Virus record (IMG/VR): IMGVR_UViG_2974574300_000001
Location: 1 to 64,000 of that record
DNA from: a virus
Lineage: Duplodnaviria > Heunggongvirae > Uroviricota > Caudoviricetes
Strand: one strand, 5' to 3'
Length of the DNA stretch: 64,000 nt
Under the pieces are notes generated by a model. That model was not told the origin of the DNA, did not search any database, and saw nothing but the letters and a program-made list of their open reading frames with translations. Below are positions 573 to 8,444 of the stretch, in pieces; the first letter of the stretch is position 1, and each line of letters opens with the position of its first letter. The translations under genes and the position numbers were made by a program.

Positions 573-1988
573 ATGAGCGAATTATTTAAACATGCGCACC
601 TTCATGCAGGTCGAACTGAAAATGGTGCTGTAAACCATACTTCATCAATGTCTGCTCTTGTAGACTTTTACAAAGCTGCTGGTTCGAGTCGTAGCAATGT
701 AGAAATCTTACCAGACCTGTTCTACAAAGCTTTGCGTGAGGATGTTGATGTTGCAGTTCGTATTTTACTGCATATGCGAGATGTACGAGAAGGTATGGGT
801 GAGCGTAAAGCCTTCAGAACTGTTTTGCTTCAAGCAATTGAAGATAAAGTTTTAGAACCTACACAGGTTCTTCGCATTATGGATAAGATTGCAGAACTTG
901 GTCGTTTTGATGACTTCAAAATCTTCGTAGGTACTCGTTTCGAGACAGATGCCTTCAAACATTTAGAAGCAGCATTACTAGACCCTGCAACAGCAGGTTT
1001 GGCAGCTAAGTGGTTACCACGAGTCAAACCACGTCATAAGCAGTTTGTAAAACGTTTCTGTAAGTTTGCCAACTTGAGTGAGAAAGATTATCGCACACTG
1101 TTGTCTGCGCTCTCTGATACAGTTGAGCAAAAAATCTCTGCTAATGAGTTTGGTAAGATTGACTACAGTAAGATTCCTTCACTTGCTGCTGCACGTTACC
1201 AAAAACTGTTTAACCGCAAAGATGGAGAACGCTACAAAGCTTACATCGAGTCCTTATCAAAGGGTGAGACTAAGATTAATGCTGGTGCTGTTTACCCATA
1301 CGATGTGATTAAGTCTGTTAAGTATGGTAATGCAGATGTTGCTAATGAGCAGTGGAAAGCACTACCAAACTGGATGGCAGAGGGTGAAAACATCTTATGT
1401 ATGACTGATGTTTCAAGCTCAATGTCTTGGGTGAATTTTGGTTCAATCACTGCTCTTGATATTGGCGTATCACTTGCCTTGTATGTAGCAGAACGCAATA
1501 CAGGTTGCTTTAAGGATGAGTTGATGGTTTATTCAACAAACCCTCACTTCATTGAACTGAGTGGTGATTTACGAAACCGTCATCGTCAGGTGATGCGACA
1601 CGTTGAATATGGCTCAACTAACTTACAAGCAGCTTTTGAACGCATTCTTGAGATAGGTAAGAGAAACAACTTGACTCAGAAAGATATGCCAAGTAAGCTT
1701 ATCATCTTCTCCGATATGGAGTTCAATCAGGTTGATGGAGCTAACGGTCGTACAAACTTTGAAGCAATTCAGAGTAAGTACAAGAAAGCTGGATACGAAA
1801 TGCCACAACTGGTATTCTGGTACTTAGCAAACCGTAATGGTACTTGCGAAGTATCTGTTAAGGATAACGGTGTAGCAATGGTATCTGGTTTCTCTCCAGC
1901 CACTTTAAAAGCTCTGCTTGGTGGTGAGAAGTTTGACCCAATCAGCGTAATGCTCAAAGCAGTAATGATTGACCGTTATATCTGGTAA
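573..1988 (+). CDS. vWA-domain protein with MIDAS motif (Ro60/TROVE-like or DUF2828-like candidate)
   Basis: 471 aa ORF; helical N-terminal half then DVSSSM (DxSxS MIDAS) and downstream acidic IIFSDMEF strand typical of von Willebrand A fold. Confidence 0.6.
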   Translation: MSELFKHAHLHAGRTENGAVNHTSSMSALVDFYKAAGSSRSNVEILPDLFYKALREDVDVAVRILLHMRDVREGMGERKAFRTVLLQAIEDKVLEPTQVLRIMDKIAELGRFDDFKIFVGTRFETDAFKHLEAALLDPATAGLAAKWLPRVKPRHKQFVKRFCKFANLSEKDYRTLLSALSDTVEQKISANEFGKIDYSKIPSLAAARYQKLFNRKDGERYKAYIESLSKGETKINAGAVYPYDVIKSVKYGNADVANEQWKALPNWMAEGENILCMTDVSSSMSWVNFGSITALDIGVSLALYVAERNTGCFKDELMVYSTNPHFIELSGDLRNRHRQVMRHVEYGSTNLQAAFERILEIGKRNNLTQKDMPSKLIIFSDMEFNQVDGANGRTNFEAIQSKYKKAGYEMPQLVFWYLANRNGTCEVSVKDNGVAMVSGFSPATLKALLGGEKFDPISVMLKAVMIDRYIW

Positions 1989-2006
1989 AAAGTTTTAAAA
2001 AGGGTA

Positions 2007-2035
2007 TTGACAATGTGTTTGATACCCTTTAATAT
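2007..2035 (+). promoter_or_regulatory. sigma70-like promoter (TTGACA-17-TAATAT) overlapped by GGGTAT/ATACCC inverted repeat
   Basis: TTGACA at 2007-2012, 17 nt spacer, TAATAT at 2030-2035, immediately upstream of tRNA array. Confidence 0.6.
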
Positions 2036-2097
2036 GTTCTACATAGAAACGAAACGAGAGCTTTTCTAAGATACTGAAAAATATTTTAAAAAAGTTC

Positions 2098-2127
2098 TTG
2101 ACAATCACTAAAAAATAATGTTAAAGT
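2098..2127 (+). promoter_or_regulatory. possible sigma70-like promoter (TTGACA-17-TTAAAG)
   Basis: TTGACA at 2098-2103; weaker -10 element. Confidence 0.35.
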
Positions 2128-2153
2128 GGTTACATAGAGTTTGAAAAGTTTAT

Positions 2154-2230
2154 CTCTGTTTAGCTCAGCTTGGTAGAGCGTTCCGTTTGGGGCGGTAAGG
2201 CCGGAGGTTCAAGTCCTCCAACAGAGACCA
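2154..2230 (+). tRNA. tRNA-Pro (anticodon TGG)
   Basis: 7 bp acceptor CTCTGTT/AACAGAG, D-arm GCTC..GAGC, anticodon loop TTTGGGG, T-arm GGAGG-TTCAAGT-CCTCC, encoded CCA. Confidence 0.75.
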
Positions 2231-2237
2231 AATTAAT

Positions 2238-2315
2238 GTTCCAGTAGACAAAATGGTATAGTCACCACTCTTTCAAAGTGGATATTTGAGGGTTCAAATC
2301 CCTTCTGGAACGCCA
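2238..2315 (+). tRNA. tRNA-Glu (anticodon TTC)
   Basis: acceptor GTTCCAG/CTGGAAC, anticodon stem CCACT/AGTGG loop CTTTCAA, T-arm GAGGG-TTCAAAT-CCCTT, CCA. Confidence 0.7.
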
Positions 2316-2406
2316 GTTTTGACAGAAGACCAATTACAGCAAACTTAATCTTATTCATCTGAAGGTAAATCGGACAAAGAAGAGATTTGGTCTGGTCATT
2401 AAGAAT

Positions 2407-2483
2407 TGCGGGTATAGAGAAAGGGCGTCTCACATGTCTCATTAGCATGGTATCGGCAGGTTCGACTCCTGCACCCGCCTCCA
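2407..2483 (+). tRNA. tRNA-Met (anticodon CAT)
   Basis: anticodon stem CATGT/GCATG loop CTCATTA, T-arm GCAGG-TTCGACT-CCTGC, acceptor with 1:72 mismatch, CCA. Confidence 0.6.
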
Positions 2484-2566
2484 AATTTACAGAAGACCGT
2501 TTACAGCAATATTTATTAAATTTTTAGCGGAAAAATTGAAAGATACGGTCTGGTAATACTAAACAT

Positions 2567-2643
2567 GGTTAGGAAGCACATAAGGTATGTGCGGTCGCCT
2601 GTTAAGCGAATGGCACAGGGTTCGAATCCCTGACTAACCGCCA
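2567..2643 (+). tRNA. tRNA-Asn (anticodon GTT)
   Basis: acceptor GGTTAGG/ACTAACC, D-stem GCAC/GTGC, anticodon loop CTGTTAA, T-arm CAGGG-TTCGAAT-CCCTG, CCA. Confidence 0.7.
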
Positions 2644-2712
2644 AATTTAGGAGAGAAGCGATTGCTCACCGATTTGTAAGGTGCAAGTCCTTAGCCTGAA
2701 TAGAAATTAAAT

Positions 2713-2800
2713 GTGTCGTTATCCCGTAGATGGTAGCGGTGGGGACTGTAAATCCCTTGTCATTGAGACTCGGTAGGTTCGACTCCTACACGGCACACCA
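2713..2800 (+). tRNA. tRNA-Tyr (anticodon GTA), long variable arm
   Basis: acceptor GTGTCGT/ACGGCAC, anticodon stem GGGGA/TCCCT loop CTGTAAA, long variable arm, T-arm GTAGG-TTCGACT-CCTAC, CCA. Confidence 0.7.
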
Positions 2801-2805
2801 ATAAA

Positions 2806-2882
2806 GGTTATGTAGTTTAATTTGGTTAAAATACTCCCTGTCACGGGAGATGATGAGGGTTCAAATCCCTTCGTAACCGCCA
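2806..2882 (+). tRNA. tRNA-Asp (anticodon GTC)
   Basis: acceptor GGTTATG/CGTAACC, canonical Asp anticodon loop CTGTCAC (weak stem), T-arm GAGGG-TTCAAAT-CCCTT, CCA. Confidence 0.6.
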
Positions 2883-3310
2883 ATTTTGAGAGGGCTATTT
2901 AGCCCCTCCCTTAAAGAGTTCTTACGAGTATTCTTTAAAGGAGCAGAAGACCAAATTCAGCAAGTTACTTAAAATTTCAAGCCAATTTAATTTTGAAAAA
3001 TTTAAAACTTGGTCTGGCTCAACAAATTTACAGAAGACCATTTACAGCAAAACTTAAACAATCTATTTCTCGGTAAAGAAAAGGAGAAGGTTCGATTCCT
3101 TCACTCGGCAGGTGTCGAGTTGGTGTAATGGTAGCACTTAAGATGATAAACAACGGTCTGGTAATTATCTTTGTAGATAAGTTATTAAGCTTACCTGTGA
3201 GTATGCGACCACAAAGGGTGAAAGGGTAAATTCTAGATTTAAACCCAAAAAGGCACATCGCTACAGACCTTAAGCAAGTCTGGGTAGCTTATCTACAAAG
3301 ATAATTTAAT

Positions 3311-3386
3311 GGAAGTGTAGCAGAATGGTGATGCGGCAGACTTTTAATCTGACAGGCGATGGGTTCGAATCCCTCCACTTCTACCA
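3311..3386 (+). tRNA. tRNA-Lys (anticodon TTT)
   Basis: acceptor GGAAGTG/CACTTCT, anticodon loop CTTTTAA, T-loop TTCGAAT, CCA. Confidence 0.65.
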
Positions 3387-3390
3387 ATAT

Positions 3391-3467
3391 GGTTCAGTCG
3401 CAGATAAGGTAATGCAAGGGTCTCATAAGCCCTATGAATGTGGGTTCGATTCCCATCTGAACCTCCA
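3391..3467 (+). tRNA. tRNA-Met or tRNA-Ile2 (anticodon CAT)
   Basis: acceptor GGTTCAG/CTGAACC, anticodon stem AGGGT/GCCCT loop CTCATAA, T-arm GTGGG-TTCGATT-CCCAT, CCA. Confidence 0.7.
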
Positions 3468-3469
3468 AT

Positions 3470-3544
3470 TGTGGGTTAGCATAAATGGTAATGCAAACGG
3501 CTGATAACCGTTAGAAGAGGGTTCGATACCCTCACCTACAACCA
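3470..3544 (+). tRNA. tRNA-Ile (anticodon GAT)
   Basis: acceptor TGTGGGT/ACCTACA, anticodon stem AACGG/CCGTT loop CTGATAA, T-arm GAGGG-TTCGATA-CCCTC, CCA. Confidence 0.7.
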
Positions 3545-3559
3545 ATTTCAATAAAGTTG

Positions 3560-3588
3560 TTGACATTGAGATGTGACTACTTTATAGT
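3560..3588 (+). promoter_or_regulatory. sigma70-like promoter (TTGACA-17-TATAGT) inside tRNA array
   Basis: TTGACA 3560-3565, 17 nt spacer, TATAGT 3583-3588. Confidence 0.6.
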
Positions 3589-3880
3589 AACTAAAATACT
3601 TCAGAATATGTATAATTCAAACACCAATACATGAGCGTTAGACGTAACACAATGTGGGGAAATTTGTTGTACATATTCTGAATAGTTTTCGTTGCGTAGC
3701 GTCTATTTTGCAAATTTAAAATAAATGCAAACGACAATGTTTTTCTGGCAGTAGCTTGATAGGCTAAACACCAGTGAGGTCTTCCAATCCCTCATCAAAG
3801 AATTTGGCGTACTAGCCACGGTATGATTAATAAGGTGGGCATCTTTAAGGGCTTTCTAAGAGAGTCTTTAAAGATAATTA

Positions 3881-3962
3881 CGGGGCGTATCTCAGCGGTC
3901 TTCTAAACCGCCGTTAACCGAGTAAGTGGAGTATGCGGGTTCGAGTCCTGCCGCCTCGACCA
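3881..3962 (+). tRNA. non-canonical tRNA-like gene (anticodon-like hairpin with TCT, no clear D-arm)
   Basis: acceptor CGGGGCG/CGCCTCG, T-arm GCGGG-TTCGAGT-CCTGC, CCA; only a 5 bp/7 nt hairpin GCGGT-CTTCTAA-ACCGC placed where the D-arm should be, followed by 23 nt extra region. Confidence 0.45.
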
Positions 3963-4104
3963 ATTAGTTAGCAGATTACTTAGACGACCTAAGCGGGTCT
4001 TCCTGTAGGGAGGTGGTCTGTATCTCATGTTTTCCAGAACATGTAAATAATCTGAGAAGGGGCTTTACAGTGTTGAGATAATACGGTAAGCTTCGAATTA
4101 TAGT

Positions 4105-4187
4105 ATGGGACGATGTTAAGACTCTAAGGCATGAGCAACGGCTTCCAACACCGTTTCAAAGGGGTTCAACTCCTCCGTCCCATGCCA
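4105..4187 (+). tRNA. non-canonical tRNA-like gene (aberrant D region; anticodon uncertain, possibly CCA)
   Basis: perfect 7 bp acceptor ATGGGAC/GTCCCAT, T-loop TTCAACT, CCA; 26 nt between acceptor and candidate anticodon hairpin ACGGC-TTCCAAC-ACCGT. Confidence 0.45.
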
Positions 4188-4200
4188 AAGTCTTATTAGG

Positions 4201-4288
4201 GGTAGGTAGCGGCTAATGGTAGCCAAACTGTCTTGAAAACAGTTGCCACTGTAGAGATACGGTGAGGGTTCGACTCCTTTACTTACCG
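4201..4288 (+). tRNA. tRNA-Ser (anticodon TGA), type II
   Basis: acceptor GGTAGGT/ACTTACC, 3 bp D-stem, anticodon stem ACTGT/ACAGT loop CTTGAAA, long variable arm, T-loop TTCGACT; CCA not fully encoded. Confidence 0.7.
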
Positions 4289-4545
4289 CCTAATAAGATT
4301 TAAAGCCAAGCTTCATTCGGATGTTGCTTTGGTATCCCTCGTGTATTGTCGTACACACTGATAAAACACCTAGTAGGTGTCACGGAGAAGAGATAATATC
4401 AAGCTCTCCAAAGGTTCTAGTCACCGGATTAAACAAGACTATGCAAAGACCTTTTTAGGTCTTTTTAGAGGGCTTCTAAGGTTATTACAGCTTGTTGTGG
4501 AACCTTGTTGCTTAGGTTCTTAGAAGTTCTCTAAAAAGATTTAAT

Positions 4546-4623
4546 GGGAGATTGACGGTAATTGGTAAACCTACCTCGCTTAGAACGAGGTGTTTGAGGG
4601 TTCGAATCCCTTGTCTCCTACCA
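4546..4623 (+). tRNA. tRNA with anticodon TAG (Leu by anticodon) but short variable arm
   Basis: acceptor GGGAGAT/GTCTCCT, anticodon stem CCTCG/CGAGG loop CTTAGAA, 5 nt variable loop, T-arm GAGGG-TTCGAAT-CCCTT, CCA. Confidence 0.6.
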
Positions 4624-4630
4624 AATTAAT

Positions 4631-4706
4631 GCAGGTGTAGCAAAATGGTTATGCGGCTGACTCTTAATCAGTAAGACGATGGGTTCAATTCCCTCCACCT
4701 GTACCA
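4631..4706 (+). tRNA. tRNA-Lys (anticodon CTT)
   Basis: acceptor GCAGGTG/CACCTGT, anticodon loop CTCTTAA, T-loop TTCAATT, CCA; paralog of 3311-3386. Confidence 0.6.
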
Positions 4707-4712
4707 AACATT

Positions 4713-4788
4713 GGGGATGTAGTTTACATGGTTAAAACATAAGTTTTGCAAACTTGGGAACTGAGTTCAATTCTCAGTGACTCCACCA
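4713..4788 (+). tRNA. tRNA-Ala (anticodon TGC)
   Basis: G3:U70 in acceptor, anticodon stem TAAGT/ACTTG loop TTTGCAA, T-arm CTGAG-TTCAATT-CTCAG, CCA. Confidence 0.6.
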
Positions 4789-4794
4789 ATTAGT

Positions 4795-4869
4795 GCATCC
4801 ATAGTTTAAACGGGAAAATTACAGTCTTCCAAACTGAGGTTGAGGGTTCGATTCCCTCTGGATGCTCCA
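4795..4869 (+). tRNA. tRNA-Trp (anticodon CCA)
   Basis: acceptor GCATCCA/TGGATGC, anticodon loop CTTCCAA, T-arm GAGGG-TTCGATT-CCCTC, CCA. Confidence 0.7.
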
Positions 4870-4875
4870 AACAAT

Positions 4876-4952
4876 GCTGCTTTCGTATAATTGGCTATTA
4901 CACATCCCTTGTAAGGATGGAAATGCAGGTTCGAGTCCTGTGAGCAGCACCA
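4876..4952 (+). tRNA. tRNA-Thr (anticodon TGT)
   Basis: acceptor GCTGCTT/GAGCAGC, anticodon stem CATCC/GGATG loop CTTGTAA, T-arm GCAGG-TTCGAGT-CCTGT, CCA. Confidence 0.7.
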
Positions 4953-5047
4953 ATTCAGAGGTCAAGTGAAAGACCGCTGGTGTCAACTGAAGACCGTAAC
5001 AAATTCCACGGAGTTGAGTTAGCGGCACAACTTCAGACCTCTTTCAC

Positions 5048-5122
5048 ACTCGCTTAGTTTATATGGTAAAACATCACCCTTACAAGATGAAGAAAAAGGT
5101 TCAAGTCCTTTAGTGAGTACCA
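5048..5122 (+). tRNA. tRNA-Val (anticodon TAC)
   Basis: acceptor ACTCGCT/AGTGAGT, D-stem GTTT/AAAC, anticodon loop CTTACAA, T-arm AAAGG-TTCAAGT-CCTTT, CCA. Confidence 0.65.
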
Positions 5123-5123
5123 T

Positions 5124-5202
5124 GTTCCAGTATCCCAATTGGCAGAGAGGCCAGACTTAAAATCTGTGTTATGTATCGGTTCGAATCCGATATGGAGTAC
5201 CA
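5124..5202 (+). tRNA. tRNA with anticodon TAA (Leu by anticodon), short variable arm
   Basis: acceptor GTTCCAG/ATGGAGT (6 of 7 pairs), anticodon stem CCAGA/TCTGT loop CTTAAAA, T-arm ATCGG-TTCGAAT-CCGAT, CCA. Confidence 0.5.
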
Positions 5203-5207
5203 ATTTT

Positions 5208-5283
5208 AGCGGTATAGCATAACTGGCAATGCAGCAGTCTCTGAAGCTGTCCTATTAAGGTTCAAATCCTTATGCCGCTGCCA
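5208..5283 (+). tRNA. tRNA-Gln (anticodon CTG)
   Basis: acceptor AGCGGTA/TGCCGCT, anticodon loop CTCTGAA, T-arm TAAGG-TTCAAAT-CCTTA, CCA. Confidence 0.6.
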
Positions 5284-5314
5284 CTTCTAAGGGTTCTTAC
5301 GAGAGTCCTTAAAT

Positions 5315-5390
5315 GTGGCCTTATCATAAACGGTAATGACCCATGCTGTGAACATGGTCTATACGGGTTCAAATCCCGTAGGTCACCCCA
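5315..5390 (+). tRNA. tRNA-His (anticodon GTG)
   Basis: acceptor GTGGCCT/AGGTCAC, discriminator C, anticodon stem CCATG/CATGG loop CTGTGAA, T-arm ACGGG-TTCAAAT-CCCGT, CCA. Confidence 0.7.
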
Positions 5391-5396
5391 ATTTAT

Positions 5397-5472
5397 AGTC
5401 CAAGTAGCTTATATGGTTAAAGCGCGTGTCTGAAAAACATGAGAAGAGGGTTCAAATCCCACTGGACTACCA
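5397..5472 (+). tRNA. tRNA-Phe (anticodon GAA)
   Basis: D-stem GCTT/AAGC, anticodon stem CGTGT/ACATG loop CTGAAAA, T-loop TTCAAAT, CCA. Confidence 0.65.
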
Positions 5473-5489
5473 ATTTTCAAAGGTGCTTA

Positions 5490-6224
5490 ATGAAAGAGAT
5501 GACAGGACAAGGTAAGGAGATTTTTAATCTCTTAAAAACCGGTAAAGGGTTTTCTAACCCACTTATTACTGGTGCAGTAGTTCTCGGTGGAACCGTAGCT
5601 GCCTCTACATCACTTGTAAGCTCTATTAGCTCTGTAACAGACCCTACAATGAAGGAGAAGCTTGTTGCTGCTGGACTCACAACAGTCCTTCTAAACAGCT
5701 TTACAACAAGCCTGACAAGCACTACAGCAACTACTAAGACCCTAACAGACTATGGTCAAAAGTCTATTGATGAGTTTTCATCACGTATGCAGGTAGCAAA
5801 GGGGTATTCCAATGTTATGGGTGCAGCAGGAGAACAAGTTGGTTGTACACCATTTAGTGGTATTATGGGTGTTGCTACAGAGTATGGTCAGCAAGCTATT
5901 GACACGATTAACAGCACACTAGACAGTGTTAACGGTGTGTTAAGTGACTTACAAGACGCTATTGATAAGGGTCTTGATACTGTTTCTGATTTAGCTAACC
6001 AAGCTGTTAGCAAGATTAATGAAGGTATCTCAAAGATTACAGCTTATGCAGATGAAGTTGTGCAGATGATTGAAGAAGAAGCTGCCCTTATTGCAGAGTA
6101 CCTTAAAACGAATATCAATGGGTTCTTAGCAGGTATCTTACCAGACTGGTTTGATGATGCTTGGAAAACTGGTGTAATCGACACTATTGCAACACCAGAA
6201 ATGAAGAACGCATTACAGAAATAA
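5490..6224 (+). CDS. hypothetical protein (Ser/Thr-rich N-terminal half)
   Basis: ORF track 5439-6224 trimmed to first ATG after tRNA-Phe; AGGTG RBS. Confidence 0.5.
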   Translation: MKEMTGQGKEIFNLLKTGKGFSNPLITGAVVLGGTVAASTSLVSSISSVTDPTMKEKLVAAGLTTVLLNSFTTSLTSTTATTKTLTDYGQKSIDEFSSRMQVAKGYSNVMGAAGEQVGCTPFSGIMGVATEYGQQAIDTINSTLDSVNGVLSDLQDAIDKGLDTVSDLANQAVSKINEGISKITAYADEVVQMIEEEAALIAEYLKTNINGFLAGILPDWFDDAWKTGVIDTIATPEMKNALQK

Positions 6225-6225
6225 T

Positions 6226-6318
6226 GGAAGATTAACCCTAAAAGGTAAGGGAGCAGTTTGCTAAACTGCCAGTAGCTGAGAAATCGGTGTACCAGTTCAA
6301 GTCTGGTATCTTCCTCCA
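6226..6318 (+). tRNA. tRNA-Ser (anticodon GCT), type II
   Basis: perfect acceptor GGAAGAT/ATCTTCC, 3 bp D-stem CCC/GGG, anticodon stem GCAGT/ACTGC loop TTGCTAA, long variable arm, T-arm ACCAG-TTCAAGT-CTGGT, CCA. Confidence 0.75.
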
Positions 6319-6322
6319 ATCT

Positions 6323-6398
6323 GAATCCGTGACAGAAATGGATATGTGCCTGTCTGCAAAACAGGTTTATAAGGGTTCAAGTCCCTTCGGATTCTCCA
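6323..6398 (+). tRNA. tRNA-Cys (anticodon GCA)
   Basis: acceptor GAATCCG/CGGATTC, anticodon stem CCTGT/ACAGG loop CTGCAAA, T-arm AAGGG-TTCAAGT-CCCTT, CCA. Confidence 0.75.
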
Positions 6399-6435
6399 AG
6401 TTATTTTACTCTCTCTCAATTAAAATAATAATAAT

Positions 6436-6495
6436 GCCCTGCTATAAGTATTCTTCCTTTCGCTACCGAAGAGTATTTTTAGACAGGGCTTTTTT
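6436..6495 (+). terminator. long hairpin followed by T6 (possible terminator after tRNA array)
   Basis: GCCCTG ... CAGGGC closing stem with nested AGTATTCTTC/GAAGAGTATT stem, then TTTTTT. Confidence 0.4.
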
Positions 6496-6560
6496 ACAGA
6501 GTTATACTTTATAGGAAGACTTATACAGTATGTCTCTGACGTACATTGTGGTTTCTCCTT

Positions 6561-6586
6561 GACGGTCTCTGTGCCGTCTTTTTTAA
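6561..6586 (+). terminator. rho-independent terminator
   Basis: GACGG-TCTCTGTG-CCGTC hairpin followed by TTTTTT. Confidence 0.65.
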
Positions 6587-6620
6587 GGGGAAACAAGATT
6601 TATTATTTGGAGAAAACATA

Positions 6621-6821
6621 ATGAGCGAGAACGTTTATAAAGAACTTTATGAAGCTAACAAGAAGTTAGAGTTTATGCAGAATACTATCATGGCAATTGC
6701 AGACAGATTATCTGTAGCAACAGGCATTGATATTAAAGAAGCATCTATGGATGCACTTCTTGATGCTGTTGATGCAAAGTTCGAAGTTAAGAAAGAAGAG
6801 ACTGCGACAGACTCTGAATAA
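6621..6821 (+). CDS. small hypothetical protein upstream of terminase
   Basis: 67 codon ORF with GGAG RBS; position directly before large terminase. Confidence 0.45.
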   Translation: MSENVYKELYEANKKLEFMQNTIMAIADRLSVATGIDIKEASMDALLDAVDAKFEVKKEETATDSE

Positions 6822-6842
6822 TTCTATTTGCGGAGGCGCTTA

Positions 6843-8444
6843 ATGGACTTAAATGCTGTTAAGCAGAAGCGAGTGGAAGATGTTAGGAAAGTCCTAGCTG
6901 GAGAGTTGGGGCTTTCTGATGAAGTAAAAGAAATTATCAAATCATTCGGTAAAGACCCCTCTAAATTCCTTCCAACTCAAATTCTGACTTTATTAAGATA
7001 CACACCAGACCAAGTTCGCCTTATCTTTAAATTGATGACTGATAAGAACTATGTAGCCCCTCAGCCGGGTTCTCAAGAGGTCTTTTTAAACACTAATGCT
7101 GACTTGGTTCTCTATGGTGGTGCTGCTGGTGCTGGTAAGACTGCTGCATTGTTAATGGACTCTTTAAGATTTATTGAAGACCCTAACTATAATGCTGTGT
7201 ATTTCCGTCGAAACACAACACAGTTACAAGGTGGTTTATGGCCTGCTGCAAAGAAACTATTTGGTAAGTTTGGTGGGATTCCTCACGAGCAGAAAATGAC
7301 TATCACATTCCCTTCTGGGGCGACTATCAAGTTTACCTATCTAGAACTTGAAAAGCACGCTGAAGGTCATCAGGGTATTGAATACTCAGCTATTTACTTT
7401 GACGAAGGTACACACTTCTCTGCTTCACAGATTTCATACCTACAAACCCGTCTACGTTCTGGTGCTGAAGGTGATTCATACATGAAGATTTCCATGAACC
7501 CAGACAGAGACCACTTTATTTATGATTGGGTAGAGCCATTCTTAGATGAAGGAGGTTATCCAGACCCTGAAAAGTGTGGTCGTATTCGTTGGTATGTAAT
7601 GAATGATGGTGTGATGGTTTCTGATTGGGAGAGAGACAAGATTCTTGAAATGTTCCCTCTTGAGATTCCTCAAACATACACCTTTATCTCTGGTACGATT
7701 GATGATAACCCAATCCTTGACTTCTTAGAACCAAAGTATCGCGGTAAGCTTGAAAACAACACCCCTGTAAACGTTGCAAGACTTCGTTTCGGTAACTGGA
7801 AGGCTCGTGCAGAAGGTTCAAACTATTGGCAAAGACAATGGTGTGAGATTGTTGATTCACTTCCAGAAGATGTATTCGATGTTAGAGCATGGGACTTAGC
7901 AGCAACTTTACCATCTGAGATTAACCCTAATCCAGACTGGACAGCGGGTGTTAAGATGGGTAAATCTAAAAAAGACGGTTGCTATTATATCATTGATGTA
8001 GTAAGATTTAGAGATAGACCCTCTGGAGTCGAAACACAAATTAATTTGACTGCTGAAAGTGACGGTAAGCGAACTGGTATTTTTATCCCTCAAGACCCAG
8101 GCGCTGCTGGTAAATCCTACGCAACATCCCTCATCAGGAAACTTGCCGAGAAAGGCTATCGTGCAAGAGCTAAACCAACAAATAAAGATAAAGTTACCCG
8201 ATTTGCGGGGTTTTCTTCTGCTTCTGAAGCTGGACTTGTAAAAGTTTTGAGAGGTAGTTGGAATGAAGCTTACTTTCAAGAACTTGAAGGCTTTTGTGGT
8301 GATGGTAAAACTAAAGATGACCAAGTGGATGCTACCAGTGATGCTTTCAACAGTCTTAACGAAGTTAAATTATTCAAGCCACCATCAATGGGTGCTCACA
8401 CAGACTTAGTGAGAGGAAATCCATATGAGGGGCTTAGACGTTGA
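6843..8444 (+). CDS. terminase large subunit
   Basis: Walker A-like VLYGGAAGAGKTAAL near N-terminus, acidic nuclease-type motifs in C-terminal half; GGAGG RBS before ATG 6843. Confidence 0.85.
   Translation: MDLNAVKQKRVEDVRKVLAGELGLSDEVKEIIKSFGKDPSKFLPTQILTLLRYTPDQVRLIFKLMTDKNYVAPQPGSQEVFLNTNADLVLYGGAAGAGKTAALLMDSLRFIEDPNYNAVYFRRNTTQLQGGLWPAAKKLFGKFGGIPHEQKMTITFPSGATIKFTYLELEKHAEGHQGIEYSAIYFDEGTHFSASQISYLQTRLRSGAEGDSYMKISMNPDRDHFIYDWVEPFLDEGGYPDPEKCGRIRWYVMNDGVMVSDWERDKILEMFPLEIPQTYTFISGTIDDNPILDFLEPKYRGKLENNTPVNVARLRFGNWKARAEGSNYWQRQWCEIVDSLPEDVFDVRAWDLAATLPSEINPNPDWTAGVKMGKSKKDGCYYIIDVVRFRDRPSGVETQINLTAESDGKRTGIFIPQDPGAAGKSYATSLIRKLAEKGYRARAKPTNKDKVTRFAGFSSASEAGLVKVLRGSWNEAYFQELEGFCGDGKTKDDQVDATSDAFNSLNEVKLFKPPSMGAHTDLVRGNPYEGLRR

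What the first reader, a model, noticed from the sequence alone, without database searches (positions are those of the whole stretch)
3163..3305. 143 bp element bounded by perfect 19 bp inverted repeats inside the tRNA array
AATTATCTTTGTAGATAAG (3163-3181) and its exact reverse complement CTTATCTACAAAGATAATT (3287-3305) flank 105 bp of non-coding sequence. This could be a long stem-loop RNA or a MITE-like insertion.
Basis: seen in the sequence. Interest (0 to 1): 0.5.

Follow-up and report, generated by a model that had tools for sequence, protein, structure and literature searches.

The report
Conserved structured RNA in phage tRNA array
The "inverted repeat" is the 24-base-pair closing stem of an unannotated, about 144-nucleotide non-coding RNA that Felix O1-like phages keep just upstream of their tRNA-Lys gene; it sits among Y-RNA-like RNAs downstream of a phage Ro60 homologue and is not a mobile element.

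Summary
The window is a Felix O1-like phage (Felixounavirus). It is the longest perfect inverted repeat in the window and extends to a 24-bp helix.

It is not a MITE. There is one copy per phage, no target-site duplication, and no copies in E. coli or other enterobacterial genomes.

Homologues occupy the same position, 0-16 nt 5' of tRNA-Lys(UUU), in ten diverged phage lineages. All keep a 17-27-bp terminal helix whose sequence differs between lineages. Compensatory changes and G·U pairs on the tRNA strand point to RNA structure. All also keep an inner hairpin with a 9-nt loop, C-Y-U-W-AGCAA.

No Rfam family matches.

The RNA lies in one predicted transcription unit with tRNAs and four paralogous stem-bulge-stem RNAs. 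One of these is a circularly permuted tRNA mimic of YrlA architecture. A Ro60 structural homologue (DUF2828) is encoded 1.2 kb upstream.

Best reading: a stable structured RNA cut from the tRNA precursor by RNase P and probably RNase III, plausibly a Y-RNA-type partner of the phage Ro60 protein. That it is a structured RNA is strongly supported; its function is inferred.

The parts
3163..3306 (+). The whole element: a candidate 144-nt structured non-coding RNA (closing helix P1 plus a multi-hairpin core)
   Evidence: Fold z = -4.8 to -5.5. Covariance model R1 scores 166.8 bits on + against 44 on -. Homologues occur in ten phage lineages.
3163..3186 (+).
   Evidence: 24-bp helix in the minimum-free-energy fold. 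Of the 22 pairs counted on alignment A4, 97.3% of cells pair and 7 pairs change on both sides.
3283..3306 (+). P1 3' strand; it contains the right arm 3288-3306
   Evidence: Same evidence as the 5' strand.
3264..3282 (+). H5: hairpin CAGAC / GUCUG with the conserved 9-nt loop CUUAAGCAA
   Evidence: Present in every lineage with a covarying stem: CAGUC/GACUG, AAACC/GGUUU, CUGUUC/GAACGG, AAAGUC/GACUUU, AGAGAC/GUCUCU. Loop consensus is C-Y-U-W-AGCAA.
3224..3246 (+). H3: hairpin GGGUAAAU[UCUAG]AUUU-AA-ACCC
   Evidence: Predicted in the fold. GAUUCUAGAUU is invariant between the Felix, Susp and Moogle groups, and the outer pairs change G-C to A-U. It is replaced by other hairpins in more distant lineages, so support is moderate.
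3196..3213 (+). H2: hairpin UGUG[AGUAUGCGAC]CACA carrying the semi-conserved loop GAGUAKGC
   Evidence: UGUG/CACA in Felix against GGGG/CCCC in L037. The loop motif GAGUAUGCG / GAGUAGGC / GAGUGCCG recurs across lineages. The MAFFT alignment there is poor, so support is weak (helix 2: 73.5% paired).
3311..3386 (+). tRNA-Lys(UUU), always the next gene. Its RNase P site would define the element's 3' end, leaving a 4-nt tail here
   Evidence: ARAGORN. The spacing from P1 to tRNA-Lys is 0-16 nt in all ten lineages (coordinates).
3028..3164 (+). Context: unit U4, a circularly permuted tRNA mimic (T arm 3085-3101, acceptor hairpin 3102-3119, D arm about 3122-3138) closed by a stem-bulge-stem module. 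This is the YrlA architecture. It abuts the element
   Evidence: After circular permutation ARAGORN calls it a tRNA with an intron, both here and in L039. The acceptor hairpin covaries: ACUCGGC/GUCGAGU, ACACG/CGUGU, ACCCUUC/GAAGGGU. Module scan.
2320..3020 (+). Context: units U1 (2320-2398), U2 (2487-2556) and U3 (2941-3020). They are paralogous small RNAs with an outer 4-bp helix, an AGA/G internal loop, the inner helix AGACC/GGUCU and the motif WUUNCAGCAA
   Evidence: AGAAGACCNWWTNCAGCAA matches 4 times on + against 0.07 expected. Folds. The outer helix covaries: UGAC/GUCA, UUAC/GUAA, GAGC/GCUC.
573..1988 (+). Context: Ro60 structural homologue (471 aa, Pfam DUF2828 + DUF7788), 1.2 kb upstream on the same strand
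   Evidence: Pfam and PHROG hits. AlphaFold2 pLDDT 86. The top 12 Foldseek PDB hits are all Ro60. Homologues in mycobacteriophages are annotated 'Ro-like RNA binding protein'.
2098..2127 (+). Context: sigma-70-like promoter match (TTGACA-18-TAAAGT, with TG) upstream of the first tRNA. The next strong match is at 3560-3588
   Evidence: Consensus scan only. No terminator-like site on + lies between 2127 and 3544.

Best explanation
The element is the gene for a roughly 144-nt structured non-coding RNA on the tRNA strand. The 'inverted repeat' is its closing helix P1 (24 bp here, 17-27 bp in relatives). P1 brings the 5' and 3' ends together around a core of three or four hairpins. One hairpin, H5, carries a conserved 9-nt loop, C-Y-U-W-AGCAA.

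Inferred mechanism. The RNA is made as part of the polycistronic precursor that starts near 2130 and runs through tRNA-Ile (3544). RNase P cutting at the 5' end of tRNA-Lys(UUU), 4 nt downstream, sets its 3' end. The long, near-perfect duplex is an obvious RNase III substrate, and cleavage there would free the RNA from the upstream RNA (unit U4).

The released RNA belongs to a cluster of Y-RNA-like RNAs. Four are stem-bulge-stem units, one of them a YrlA-type permuted tRNA mimic. All lie downstream of the phage's Ro60 homologue. H5 looks like a miniature of those units: the same AGAC/GUCU stem followed by ...AGCAA. The most likely role is therefore an RNA partner or scaffold of the same ribonucleoprotein system.

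Shown: the structure, its conservation, the strand, single-copy status and the genomic context. Inferred: transcription, the processing steps, and any link to the Ro60-like protein.
For: Structure:
- The 19-nt perfect arms are the longest in the window; none of 30 shuffles reaches 19.
- Fold z = -4.8.
- On 17 distinct sequences, P1 has 22 pairs with 97.3% of cells paired and 7 pairs changed on both sides. Partners slid by 1-3 columns pair in only 28-45% of cells.
- RNAalifold independently predicts P1 and H5, with 11 covarying pairs.
- Ten lineages (Ro60-like protein 53-100% identical) all have a 17-27-bp terminal helix of unrelated sequence. Examples are AAUUAUCUUUGUAG..., AUUUCUUUGGGGUUUACC... 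and UAUUUGAAGUGAGUCUUG..., with z from -2.4 to -6.7.

Strand:
- There are 0-3 G·U pairs per lineage in P1 (21 in the ten sequences) against one A·C opposition.
- Model R1 scores 166.8 bits on + and 44 on -.

Position:
- The element is always 0-16 nt 5' of tRNA-Lys(UUU), while the upstream neighbour varies (U4, U3 or tRNA-Ala).

Transcription context:
- A promoter-like site lies at 2098-2127, with no + strand terminator before 3544.

Ro60 / Y-RNA context:
- The upstream gene is a Ro60 fold.
- Bas63 (a Felixounavirus) gp130 was reported as Ro60-like and directly upstream of the tRNAs, with the suggestion that some 'tRNAs' are Y RNAs (PMC11482910).
- YrlA is defined as T arm, acceptor-like stem-loop and D arm, encoded next to Ro60, with a second smaller Y RNA processed from the same precursor (PMC4201824).
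- U4 has that order and is called a tRNA after permutation.
- Four units share a stem-bulge-stem module.
- The L039 homologue of the element starts with the units' leader UUUGCAAAGAAUCUUUCAGCA.
Against: - No expression data were available, so transcription, the RNA ends and its stability are inferred.
- In Felix O1-type phages P1 is a perfect duplex. It lacks the bulged stem and the CGAA-type motif that define Ro60-binding sites in known Y RNAs (PMC4201824, PMC12135203). The four U units are better candidates for the Ro60-like protein's ligands.
- Bas63 gp130 counters the Ppl defence when expressed alone from a plasmid or from T7 (PMC11482910). That activity therefore does not need this RNA.
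- Model R1 found the element only in the Felix O1-like clade, not in 75 more distant phage loci that encode the DUF2828 protein. It is not an obligate partner of the protein family.
- Salmonella phage SP116 lacks the element through a larger deletion, so it is dispensable at least in the laboratory.
- Two other long hairpins with little or no conserved core lie in the same array, at 3587-3695 and 4455-4544. This favours a plain processing role for long stems here.
- The core hairpins H2 to H4 are not well aligned across lineages.
Confidence: 0.55

Rival explanations
1. Processing signal only. The long duplex is an RNase III (or other endonuclease) site that separates the upstream non-coding RNAs from the tRNA-Lys/Met/Ile block. 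It would shape the 5' leader for RNase P, and the excised piece would have no function of its own.
For: P1 is 17-27 bp of near-perfect dsRNA in every lineage, about two helical turns, which is the known requirement of RNase III (established knowledge). It abuts a tRNA 5' end in all lineages. Two more long hairpins lie in the array: one immediately 5' of tRNA-Leu at 4455-4544 and one at the start of the next transcription unit at 3587-3695. The core diverges quickly between lineages.
Against: A processing stem does not need a 100-nt core. Yet H5, with its 9-nt loop C-Y-U-W-AGCAA and covarying stem, is kept in all ten lineages, and the H2 loop GAGUAKGC in most. Total length stays at 138-160 nt.
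Confidence: 0.25
2. tRNA-Lys-linked anti-defence RNA. The RNA acts in trans as a decoy or inhibitor for a host nuclease that attacks tRNA-Lys(UUU) (PrrC/RloC-type anticodon nucleases), or it otherwise protects or regulates the adjacent phage tRNA-Lys.
For: Adjacency to tRNA-Lys(UUU) is the one invariant of its context. The H5 loop begins CUUU/CUUA and ends AA, like the tRNA-Lys anticodon loop CUUUUAA, and in Felix O1 the H5 stem CAGA/UCUG equals the anticodon stem of the neighbouring tRNA-Lys. Phage tRNAs are known to counter tRNA-targeting defences (cited in PMC11482910).
Against: The stem identity with tRNA-Lys is not kept in other lineages: in L039 H5 is CUGUUC/GAACGG while the tRNA-Lys anticodon stem is ACGGU/ACCGU. 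The loop is 9 nt, not 7. Conserved gene order alone can explain the adjacency.
Confidence: 0.08
3. DNA-level palindrome: a cruciform or a binding site for a dimeric protein (replication, packaging or transcription control) rather than an RNA.
For: The arms are perfect over 19 bp in Felix O1-type phages. The - strand RNA would fold almost as well (-44.8 kcal/mol).
Against: A protein-binding palindrome would conserve sequence. Here the sequence is replaced while pairing is kept. G·U pairs on + would be A·C mismatches in DNA and on the - strand. The inner hairpins covary as well. The site lies in the middle of a tRNA transcription unit.
Confidence: 0.03
4. MITE-like or other mobile insertion bounded by terminal inverted repeats.
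For: Perfect 19-bp terminal inverted repeats and a non-coding interior of a typical MITE size.
Against: There is a single copy in the window and one place per phage record in 188 records. No match in 5,426 E. coli genomes. The arm 19-mer occurs only singly, never as a pair, in 21 unrelated GTDB genomes, none of them enterobacterial. There is no target-site duplication. The element is orthologous and diverges together with its flanks in all related lineages. The one genome lacking it lost 3103-3353 by recombination between two T arms, not by excision at the repeats.
Confidence: 0.02
5. Protein-coding: the - strand ORF 3028-3258 (76 aa), annotated 'hypothetical protein' in several GenBank records, is the real feature.
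For: It is annotated in FM4b, Felix O1 and other records.
Against: The ORF is not conserved: the largest - strand ORFs at the same place are 38-44 aa in phiSUSP1 and 29-44 aa in L037. It overlaps a T arm and the P1 helix. The region evolves by paired substitutions and indels, not by codon-preserving changes.
Confidence: 0.01

Closest known systems
Bacterial and phage Y RNAs (YrlA/YrlB of Salmonella and Mycobacterium; Yrl1/Yrl2 of Thermus phage phiLo), the RNA partners of Ro60/Rsr
   Same: Both are encoded next to a Ro60 homologue on the same strand. The 5' and 3' ends pair into a long stem around a structured core, and the size falls in the 70-210-nt range. Several Y RNAs sit side by side and are processed from one precursor. 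One neighbour (U4) has the T arm, acceptor hairpin and D arm order that defines YrlA (PMC4201824, PMC12135203).
   Different: The element itself has no tRNA-like domain. In Felix O1 its stem is an uninterrupted duplex without the bulge or the GNCGAA(N)G / CGAA motif. The associated protein is the DUF2828 branch, which resembles Ro60 in fold (Foldseek E about 1e-7, 11-15% identity) but matched no solved structure by sequence. Binding has not been tested.
Bacteriophage T4 species 1 and species 2 RNAs (rnaC, rnaD)
   Same: These are stable RNAs of about 120-140 nt encoded inside a phage tRNA cluster and co-transcribed with the tRNAs. Their function is still unknown (PMC9697503; X03016 annotation). 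From my own recollection, unverified here, T4 species 1 RNA was one of the first RNase III substrates cleaved in vitro (Paddock et al., Nucleic Acids Res 1976).
   Different: T4 species 1 ends in a T arm plus an acceptor-like stem (CCGGGUUCGAAUCCCGG), so it is a tRNA-like molecule with an oversized arm; the Felix O1 element has no T arm. Model R1 does not match either T4 RNA (best 9.6 bits elsewhere in the locus). T4 has no Ro60 homologue next to its tRNA genes in the record shown.
RNase III processing stems: the helices flanking 16S and 23S rRNA, and the phage T7 and lambda processing hairpins
   Same: Distant 5' and 3' flanks pair into 20 bp or more of dsRNA, bracketing an RNA that is cut out of a polycistronic precursor (established knowledge). 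Stem lengths here are 17-27 bp.
   Different: No cleavage data exist. The bracketed RNA is only about 100 nt and of unknown function.
Miniature inverted-repeat transposable elements (MITEs)
   Same: Terminal inverted repeats and a short non-coding body.
   Different: Single copy, no target-site duplication, orthologous in all relatives, and the arms evolve by compensatory change.

Membership tests
MITE / mobile element with terminal inverted repeats | Terminal inverted repeats | tested here: met
   19-bp perfect arms at 3163-3181 and 3288-3306.
MITE / mobile element with terminal inverted repeats | Target-site duplication flanking the repeats | tested here: not met
   The flanks are ...GGTCTGGT and TAATGGAAG..., with no direct repeat.
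MITE / mobile element with terminal inverted repeats | Multiple copies in the same or host genomes | tested here: not met
   One copy in the window. One place per record in 185 of 188 phage records; the other three were not examined (191 places in all). None in E. coli genomes. No paired arms in GTDB genomes and none in enterobacteria.
MITE / mobile element with terminal inverted repeats | Presence/absence polymorphism with precise boundaries at the repeats | tested here: not met
   The element is present at the orthologous site in all ten lineages. The only absence (SP116) is a 251-bp deletion between two T arms.
Y RNA (Ro60-associated RNA) | Encoded adjacent to a Ro60 orthologue | tested here: met
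   It lies 1,175 nt downstream of a gene whose model matches Ro60 structures as its top 12 PDB hits. The gene order is kept in L037-L040 and L121-L124.
Y RNA (Ro60-associated RNA) | 5' and 3' ends paired into a long stem | tested here: met
   24 bp here and 17-27 bp in relatives, with covariation.
Y RNA (Ro60-associated RNA) | Bulged stem carrying the Ro60-binding motif (GGUCCGA in animals; GNCGAAN0-1G / CGAA in bacteria and phage phiLo) | tested here: not met
   P1 is an uninterrupted duplex in Felix O1 and has no such motif. CGAAG occurs in the core of some lineages (Sf13 and L038 GCCGAAG; L123 and L124 CACGAAG) but not in Felix O1. The neighbouring U1-U4 units do have a stem / AGA-G bulge / stem with CAGAAG.
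Y RNA (Ro60-associated RNA) | Physical binding to the Ro60 protein | not testable with these tools
   This needs pull-down or gel-shift experiments with the 573-1988 protein.
YrlA (tRNA-mimic Y RNA), considered for the neighbouring unit U4 and not for the element | T-like and D-like stem-loops separated by an acceptor-like stem-loop | tested here: met
   For U4 (3028-3164): ARAGORN calls the circularly permuted sequence a tRNA, and likewise in L039; the acceptor hairpin covaries. The element 3163-3306 has no T or D arm.
Any Rfam 15 family | Covariance-model match at or near the gathering score | tested here: not met
   No hit overlapping 3163-3306 at E <= 5 over 1500-7000 or at E <= 10 over 2884-3312.
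T4 species 1 / species 2 RNA | Sequence and structure homology with the T4 RNAs | tested here: not met
   Model R1 with filters off gives no match on L125 1476-1738. T4 species 1 has a T arm and acceptor stem that the element lacks.
RNase III substrate | About 20 bp or more of largely uninterrupted dsRNA | tested here: met
   24 bp here, 19 of them perfect Watson-Crick, and 17-27 bp in relatives.
RNase III substrate | Cleavage by RNase III in vivo or in vitro | not testable with these tools
   This needs end mapping in wild-type and rnc hosts, or an in vitro assay.

The most novel reading that the evidence does not exclude
The element is a previously undescribed class of phage trans-acting RNA. 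Its long stem and its helix-plus-AGCAA hairpin would be read by the phage Ro60-like protein or by a host RNA enzyme. Together with the four stem-bulge-stem units it would form an RNA toolkit that travels with tRNA-Lys(UUU) and serves anti-defence or tRNA-surveillance functions during infection.
Probability: 0.15. Interest if true: 0.8.

Novelty: new variant of a known kind. Interest (0 to 1): 0.55.

Why it matters
Felix O1-like phages are widely used for Salmonella and E. coli typing and biocontrol, yet their tRNA region is annotated only with tRNAs and spurious small ORFs.

This work points to at least five unannotated structured RNAs there. One is the 144-nt RNA examined here and another is a YrlA-type tRNA mimic. 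All lie directly downstream of a Ro60 homologue that was recently shown to defeat the Ppl defence in the related phage Bas63.

That paper guessed that 'some tRNA genes are possibly Y RNAs'. The present analysis names concrete candidates with coordinates, structures and covariation, so the idea becomes directly testable.

It also offers a second system, alongside the T4 species 1 and 2 RNAs whose function has remained unknown for some fifty years, for asking why phages keep stable non-tRNA RNAs inside tRNA clusters.

Tried and rejected
- Rfam scans at permissive thresholds found nothing over the element.
- A search for extra copies found none in the window by covariance model, in E. coli genomes or in GTDB genomes. 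This rejects the MITE reading.
- A loose DNA pattern (GAGTAKGC...CYTWAGCAAG) over IMG/VR returned more than 119 loci. Model R1 was run on 100 of them and only Felix O1-like ones passed, so no new lineages came from that source.
- R1 over 75 distant DUF2828-encoding loci gave no hits.
- Homology with T4 species 1 and 2 RNA was tested and rejected.
- MAFFT could not align the distant homologues (L039, L040, L121) structurally. Covariation statistics were therefore restricted to 17 alignable sequences, and the distant lineages were treated helix by helix.
- I looked for a pseudoknot between the H2 loop (GAGUAKGC) and the segment 5' of H5 (CGCUAC / ACUC). The possible pairings use different registers in different lineages, so I do not claim it.
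- I checked whether H5 mimics the tRNA-Lys anticodon arm. The stem identity holds only in Felix O1.
- The - strand ORF 3028-3258 was rejected as not conserved.
- The supplement of the YrlA paper, which might list Felix O1, is not held.
- A literature search for Felixounavirus transcriptomes returned nothing useful.

Full report
**What the window is.** The 441 bases around the finding are 100% identical to Salmonella phage FM4b and 99.1% identical to Felix O1. They match 250 phage records, nearly all Felix O1-like (Ounavirinae). ARAGORN finds 22 tRNA genes at 2154-6398, all on the + strand. The finding lies in a 428-base stretch without predicted tRNAs, between tRNA-Asp (ends 2882) and tRNA-Lys(UUU) (starts 3311).

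**The observation.**
- The left arm AATTATCTTTGTAGATAAG is at 3163-3181.
The element is therefore 144 bp.
- With G·U pairs the helix extends to 24 bp.
- It is the longest perfect inverted repeat in the window. Thirty dinucleotide-preserving shuffles gave at most 17 nt.
- The + strand RNA folds at -48.3 kcal/mol, z = -4.8. The - strand folds nearly as well, as expected for a palindrome. Strand therefore had to be settled by other evidence.

**Not a mobile element.**
- The element matches 188 phage records at 94-100% identity, at 191 places in all.
- It does not occur in 5,426 complete E. coli genomes.
- A covariance model built from it finds no second copy in the 64-kb window.
- The 19-mer arm occurs only singly in 21 unrelated genomes out of 596 Gb, never as an inverted pair and never in an enterobacterium.
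- The flanks carry no target-site duplication.
- The only related genome without the element, Salmonella phage SP116, has lost window 3103-3353. The cause was recombination between the T arm of the upstream tRNA-like RNA and the T arm of tRNA-Lys, not excision at the repeats.

**A conserved RNA structure.**
- More diverged relatives are Suspvirus, Mooglevirus and six metagenomic or Yersinia phage lineages. I reached them through the upstream protein, which is 53-89% identical to the window's. All have a 138-160-nt element at the same place, 0-16 nt upstream of tRNA-Lys(UUU).
- The neighbour on the 5' side varies between lineages.
- Each element folds with a 17-27-bp terminal helix, yet the helix sequences are unrelated between lineages.
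- I aligned 17 distinct sequences from the three closest groups. The 22 counted P1 pairs are standard pairs in 97.3% of cells. Seven pairs change on both sides, for example U-A to C-G at three positions.
- Sliding the 3' partners by one to three columns drops pairing to 28-45%.
- RNAalifold, run without my structure, recovers P1 and the inner hairpin H5, with 11 covarying pairs.
- P1 holds 0-3 G·U pairs per lineage on the + strand, against a single A·C opposition.
- The covariance model scores 166.8 bits on + and 44 on -.
- Taken together, this is an RNA on the tRNA strand, not a DNA palindrome.

**The core.**
- H5 (3264-3282, CAGAC-CUUAAGCAA-GUCUG) is present in every lineage. Its stem covaries and its loop follows the consensus C-Y-U-W-AGCAA.
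- H3 (3224-3246, loop UCUAG) is shared by the Felix, Susp and Moogle groups. Other hairpins replace it further out.
- H2 (3196-3213) carries a semi-conserved loop, GAGUAKGC.
- The alignment of H2-H4 across lineages is not good enough to fix that part of the structure.
- No Rfam family matches.
- The - strand ORF that some records annotate over this region is not conserved.

**Surroundings.**
- The motif AGAAGACCNWWTNCAGCAA occurs four times on the + strand between 2324 and 3050, against 0.07 expected.
- Each copy opens a small RNA, here called U1-U4. The ends of each form an outer 4-bp helix, an AGA/G internal loop and the inner helix AGACC/GGUCU.
- The outer helix covaries between units: UGAC/GUCA, UUAC/GUAA, GAGC/GCUC.
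- U4 (3028-3164) ends one base before the element. It contains a T arm, a 7-bp hairpin in the acceptor position and a D arm, in that order. After circular permutation ARAGORN calls it a tRNA, both here and in L039. The acceptor hairpin covaries.
- That order is the defining architecture of YrlA, the tRNA-mimic Y RNA encoded next to bacterial and phage Ro60 genes. YrlA is often accompanied by a second Y RNA processed from the same precursor (PMC4201824).

**The upstream gene.**
- The gene at 573-1988 (Pfam DUF2828 + DUF7788, PHROG 'RNA-binding protein') gives a confident AlphaFold2 model (pLDDT 86).
- Its twelve best PDB matches are all Ro60 proteins, including the Thermus phage phiLo Ro60 (E from 6e-8 to 1e-6).
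- tblastn links it to mycobacteriophage genes annotated 'Ro-like RNA binding protein'.
- A 2024 preprint reports that the corresponding protein of the Felixounavirus Bas63 (gp130) resembles Ro60, lies directly upstream of the tRNAs and counters the Ppl defence. It guesses that some annotated tRNAs are Y RNAs (PMC11482910).
- In that work gp130 alone was enough to counter Ppl.

**How it most likely works.**
- Promoter-like sites lie at 2098-2127 and 3560-3588, with no + strand terminator between them (consensus matches only). The element would therefore be transcribed with U1-U4 and eight tRNAs as one precursor.
- RNase P at the tRNA-Lys 5' end would leave a 4-nt tail on the element.
- The 24-bp duplex meets the length requirement for RNase III, which would detach it from U4.
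- H5 has the same AGAC/GUCU stem and ...AGCAA motif as the U units. The L039 homologue begins with the units' leader sequence. I therefore read the element as a diverged member of that RNA family and a plausible partner of the Ro60-like protein.

**Weaknesses of that reading.**
- There is no bulged Ro60-type site in P1.
- R1 finds no hits in 75 distant DUF2828 loci.
- The element is dispensable in SP116.
- Two other long hairpins in the array look like plain processing sites.
- The main rival is thus that the stem is only a processing signal.

**Comparison with known systems.**
- The nearest functional analogues are Y RNAs and the T4 species 1 and 2 RNAs. The T4 RNAs also sit in a phage tRNA cluster and still have no known function (PMC9697503).
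- T4 species 1 has a T arm and acceptor stem and does not match the model.
- The element fails the MITE tests. It meets two of the three testable Y-RNA criteria, missing the binding motif.
- I rate it a new variant of a known kind: an undescribed structured RNA family in a Y-RNA/Ro60 and tRNA-array context.

**Confidence.** About 0.9 that it is a conserved structured RNA. About 0.35 that it works with the Ro60-like protein.

Noticed in passing
window 2320-2398, 2487-2556, 2941-3020, 3028-3164 (+): Four unannotated paralogous small RNAs (U1-U4) interleaved with the tRNAs. Each has an outer 4-bp helix, an AGA/G internal loop, the inner helix AGACC/GGUCU and the motif WUUNCAGCAA. The same module occurs in L037, L038, L039, L122 and, just after the Ro60-like gene, in the distant L046 (6662-6734).
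   Followed up: partly
window 3028-3164 (+); L039 7950-8087: U4 is a circularly permuted tRNA mimic (T arm, acceptor hairpin, D arm) of YrlA architecture. In the L039 homologue the acceptor hairpin loop reads ACCA right after the 3' acceptor strand, as in the M. smegmatis YrlA that is cut by RNase P and carries CCA.
   Followed up: partly
window 573-1988 (+): The DUF2828/DUF7788 protein is a Ro60 structural homologue, and the gene order DUF5681, Ro60-like, tRNA array, DUF7217, terminase is conserved. The family is widespread in phages: tblastn finds it in 708 phage records, including Vibrio, Listeria, Staphylococcus, Campylobacter and Mycobacterium phages.
   Followed up: yes
window 3881-3962 (+): Where relatives have a normal tRNA-Arg(UCU), this phage has a tRNA-like gene with a 7-bp acceptor stem, a UCU anticodon arm and a T arm, but no D arm and an extra region of about 20 nt. 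ARAGORN does not call it, and Rfam gives only a weak local tmRNA hit.
   Followed up: partly
window 3587-3695 (+) and 4455-4544 (+): Two more long hairpins lie in the array (z = -5.7 and -5.8). The first starts right after a strong promoter-like site (TTGACA-17-TATAGT at 3560-3588). The second, about 29 bp of near-perfect stem, ends one base before tRNA-Leu(UAG). They may be further RNase III-type processing sites.
   Followed up: partly
L017 6465-6560 (Salmonella phage SP116) against window 3103-3353: A 251-bp deletion by recombination between the T arm of U4 and the T arm of tRNA-Lys removes the 3' half of U4, the whole element and the 5' part of tRNA-Lys(UUU). It leaves a chimaeric gene.
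   Followed up: yes
window 2328-2394, 2495-2552, 2949-3016 (+): Rfam's Dictyostelium Class I RNA model gives weak hits (15-20 bits) on U1-U3. Both RNA types pair their ends in a short stem followed by ...UUACAGCAA (CCUUACAGCAA in Dictyostelium). This is probably coincidence or convergence.
   Followed up: no
L125 1632-1639 and 1689-1696 (T4 species 1 RNA) against window 3199-3207: T4 species 1 RNA contains GAGUAGCG twice. The H2 loop of the element family reads GAGUAUGCG, GAGUAGGC(G) or GAGUGCCG. It is a short motif whose significance was not assessed.
   Followed up: no
window 3264-3282 against 3032-3050 and 3154-3160: Hairpin H5 of the element looks like a U unit with its interior removed: AGACC-UUAAGCAA-GUCUGG compared with AGACC-AUUUACAGCAA...GGUCUGG. 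This suggests common descent or a shared recognition element.
   Followed up: partly
window 2233-2484, 2719-2883, 3028-3258 (-) and the equivalent CDS in GenBank records: Several 'hypothetical protein' CDS annotated on the - strand across the tRNA array (for example in FM4b and Felix O1) overlap tRNAs and structured RNAs. At least the 76-aa one is not conserved and is probably spurious.
   Followed up: partly
window 2806-2882 (+): ARAGORN reports the tRNA annotated elsewhere as tRNA-Asp(GUC) with a four-base anticodon 'gtca', that is, an enlarged anticodon loop.
   Followed up: no
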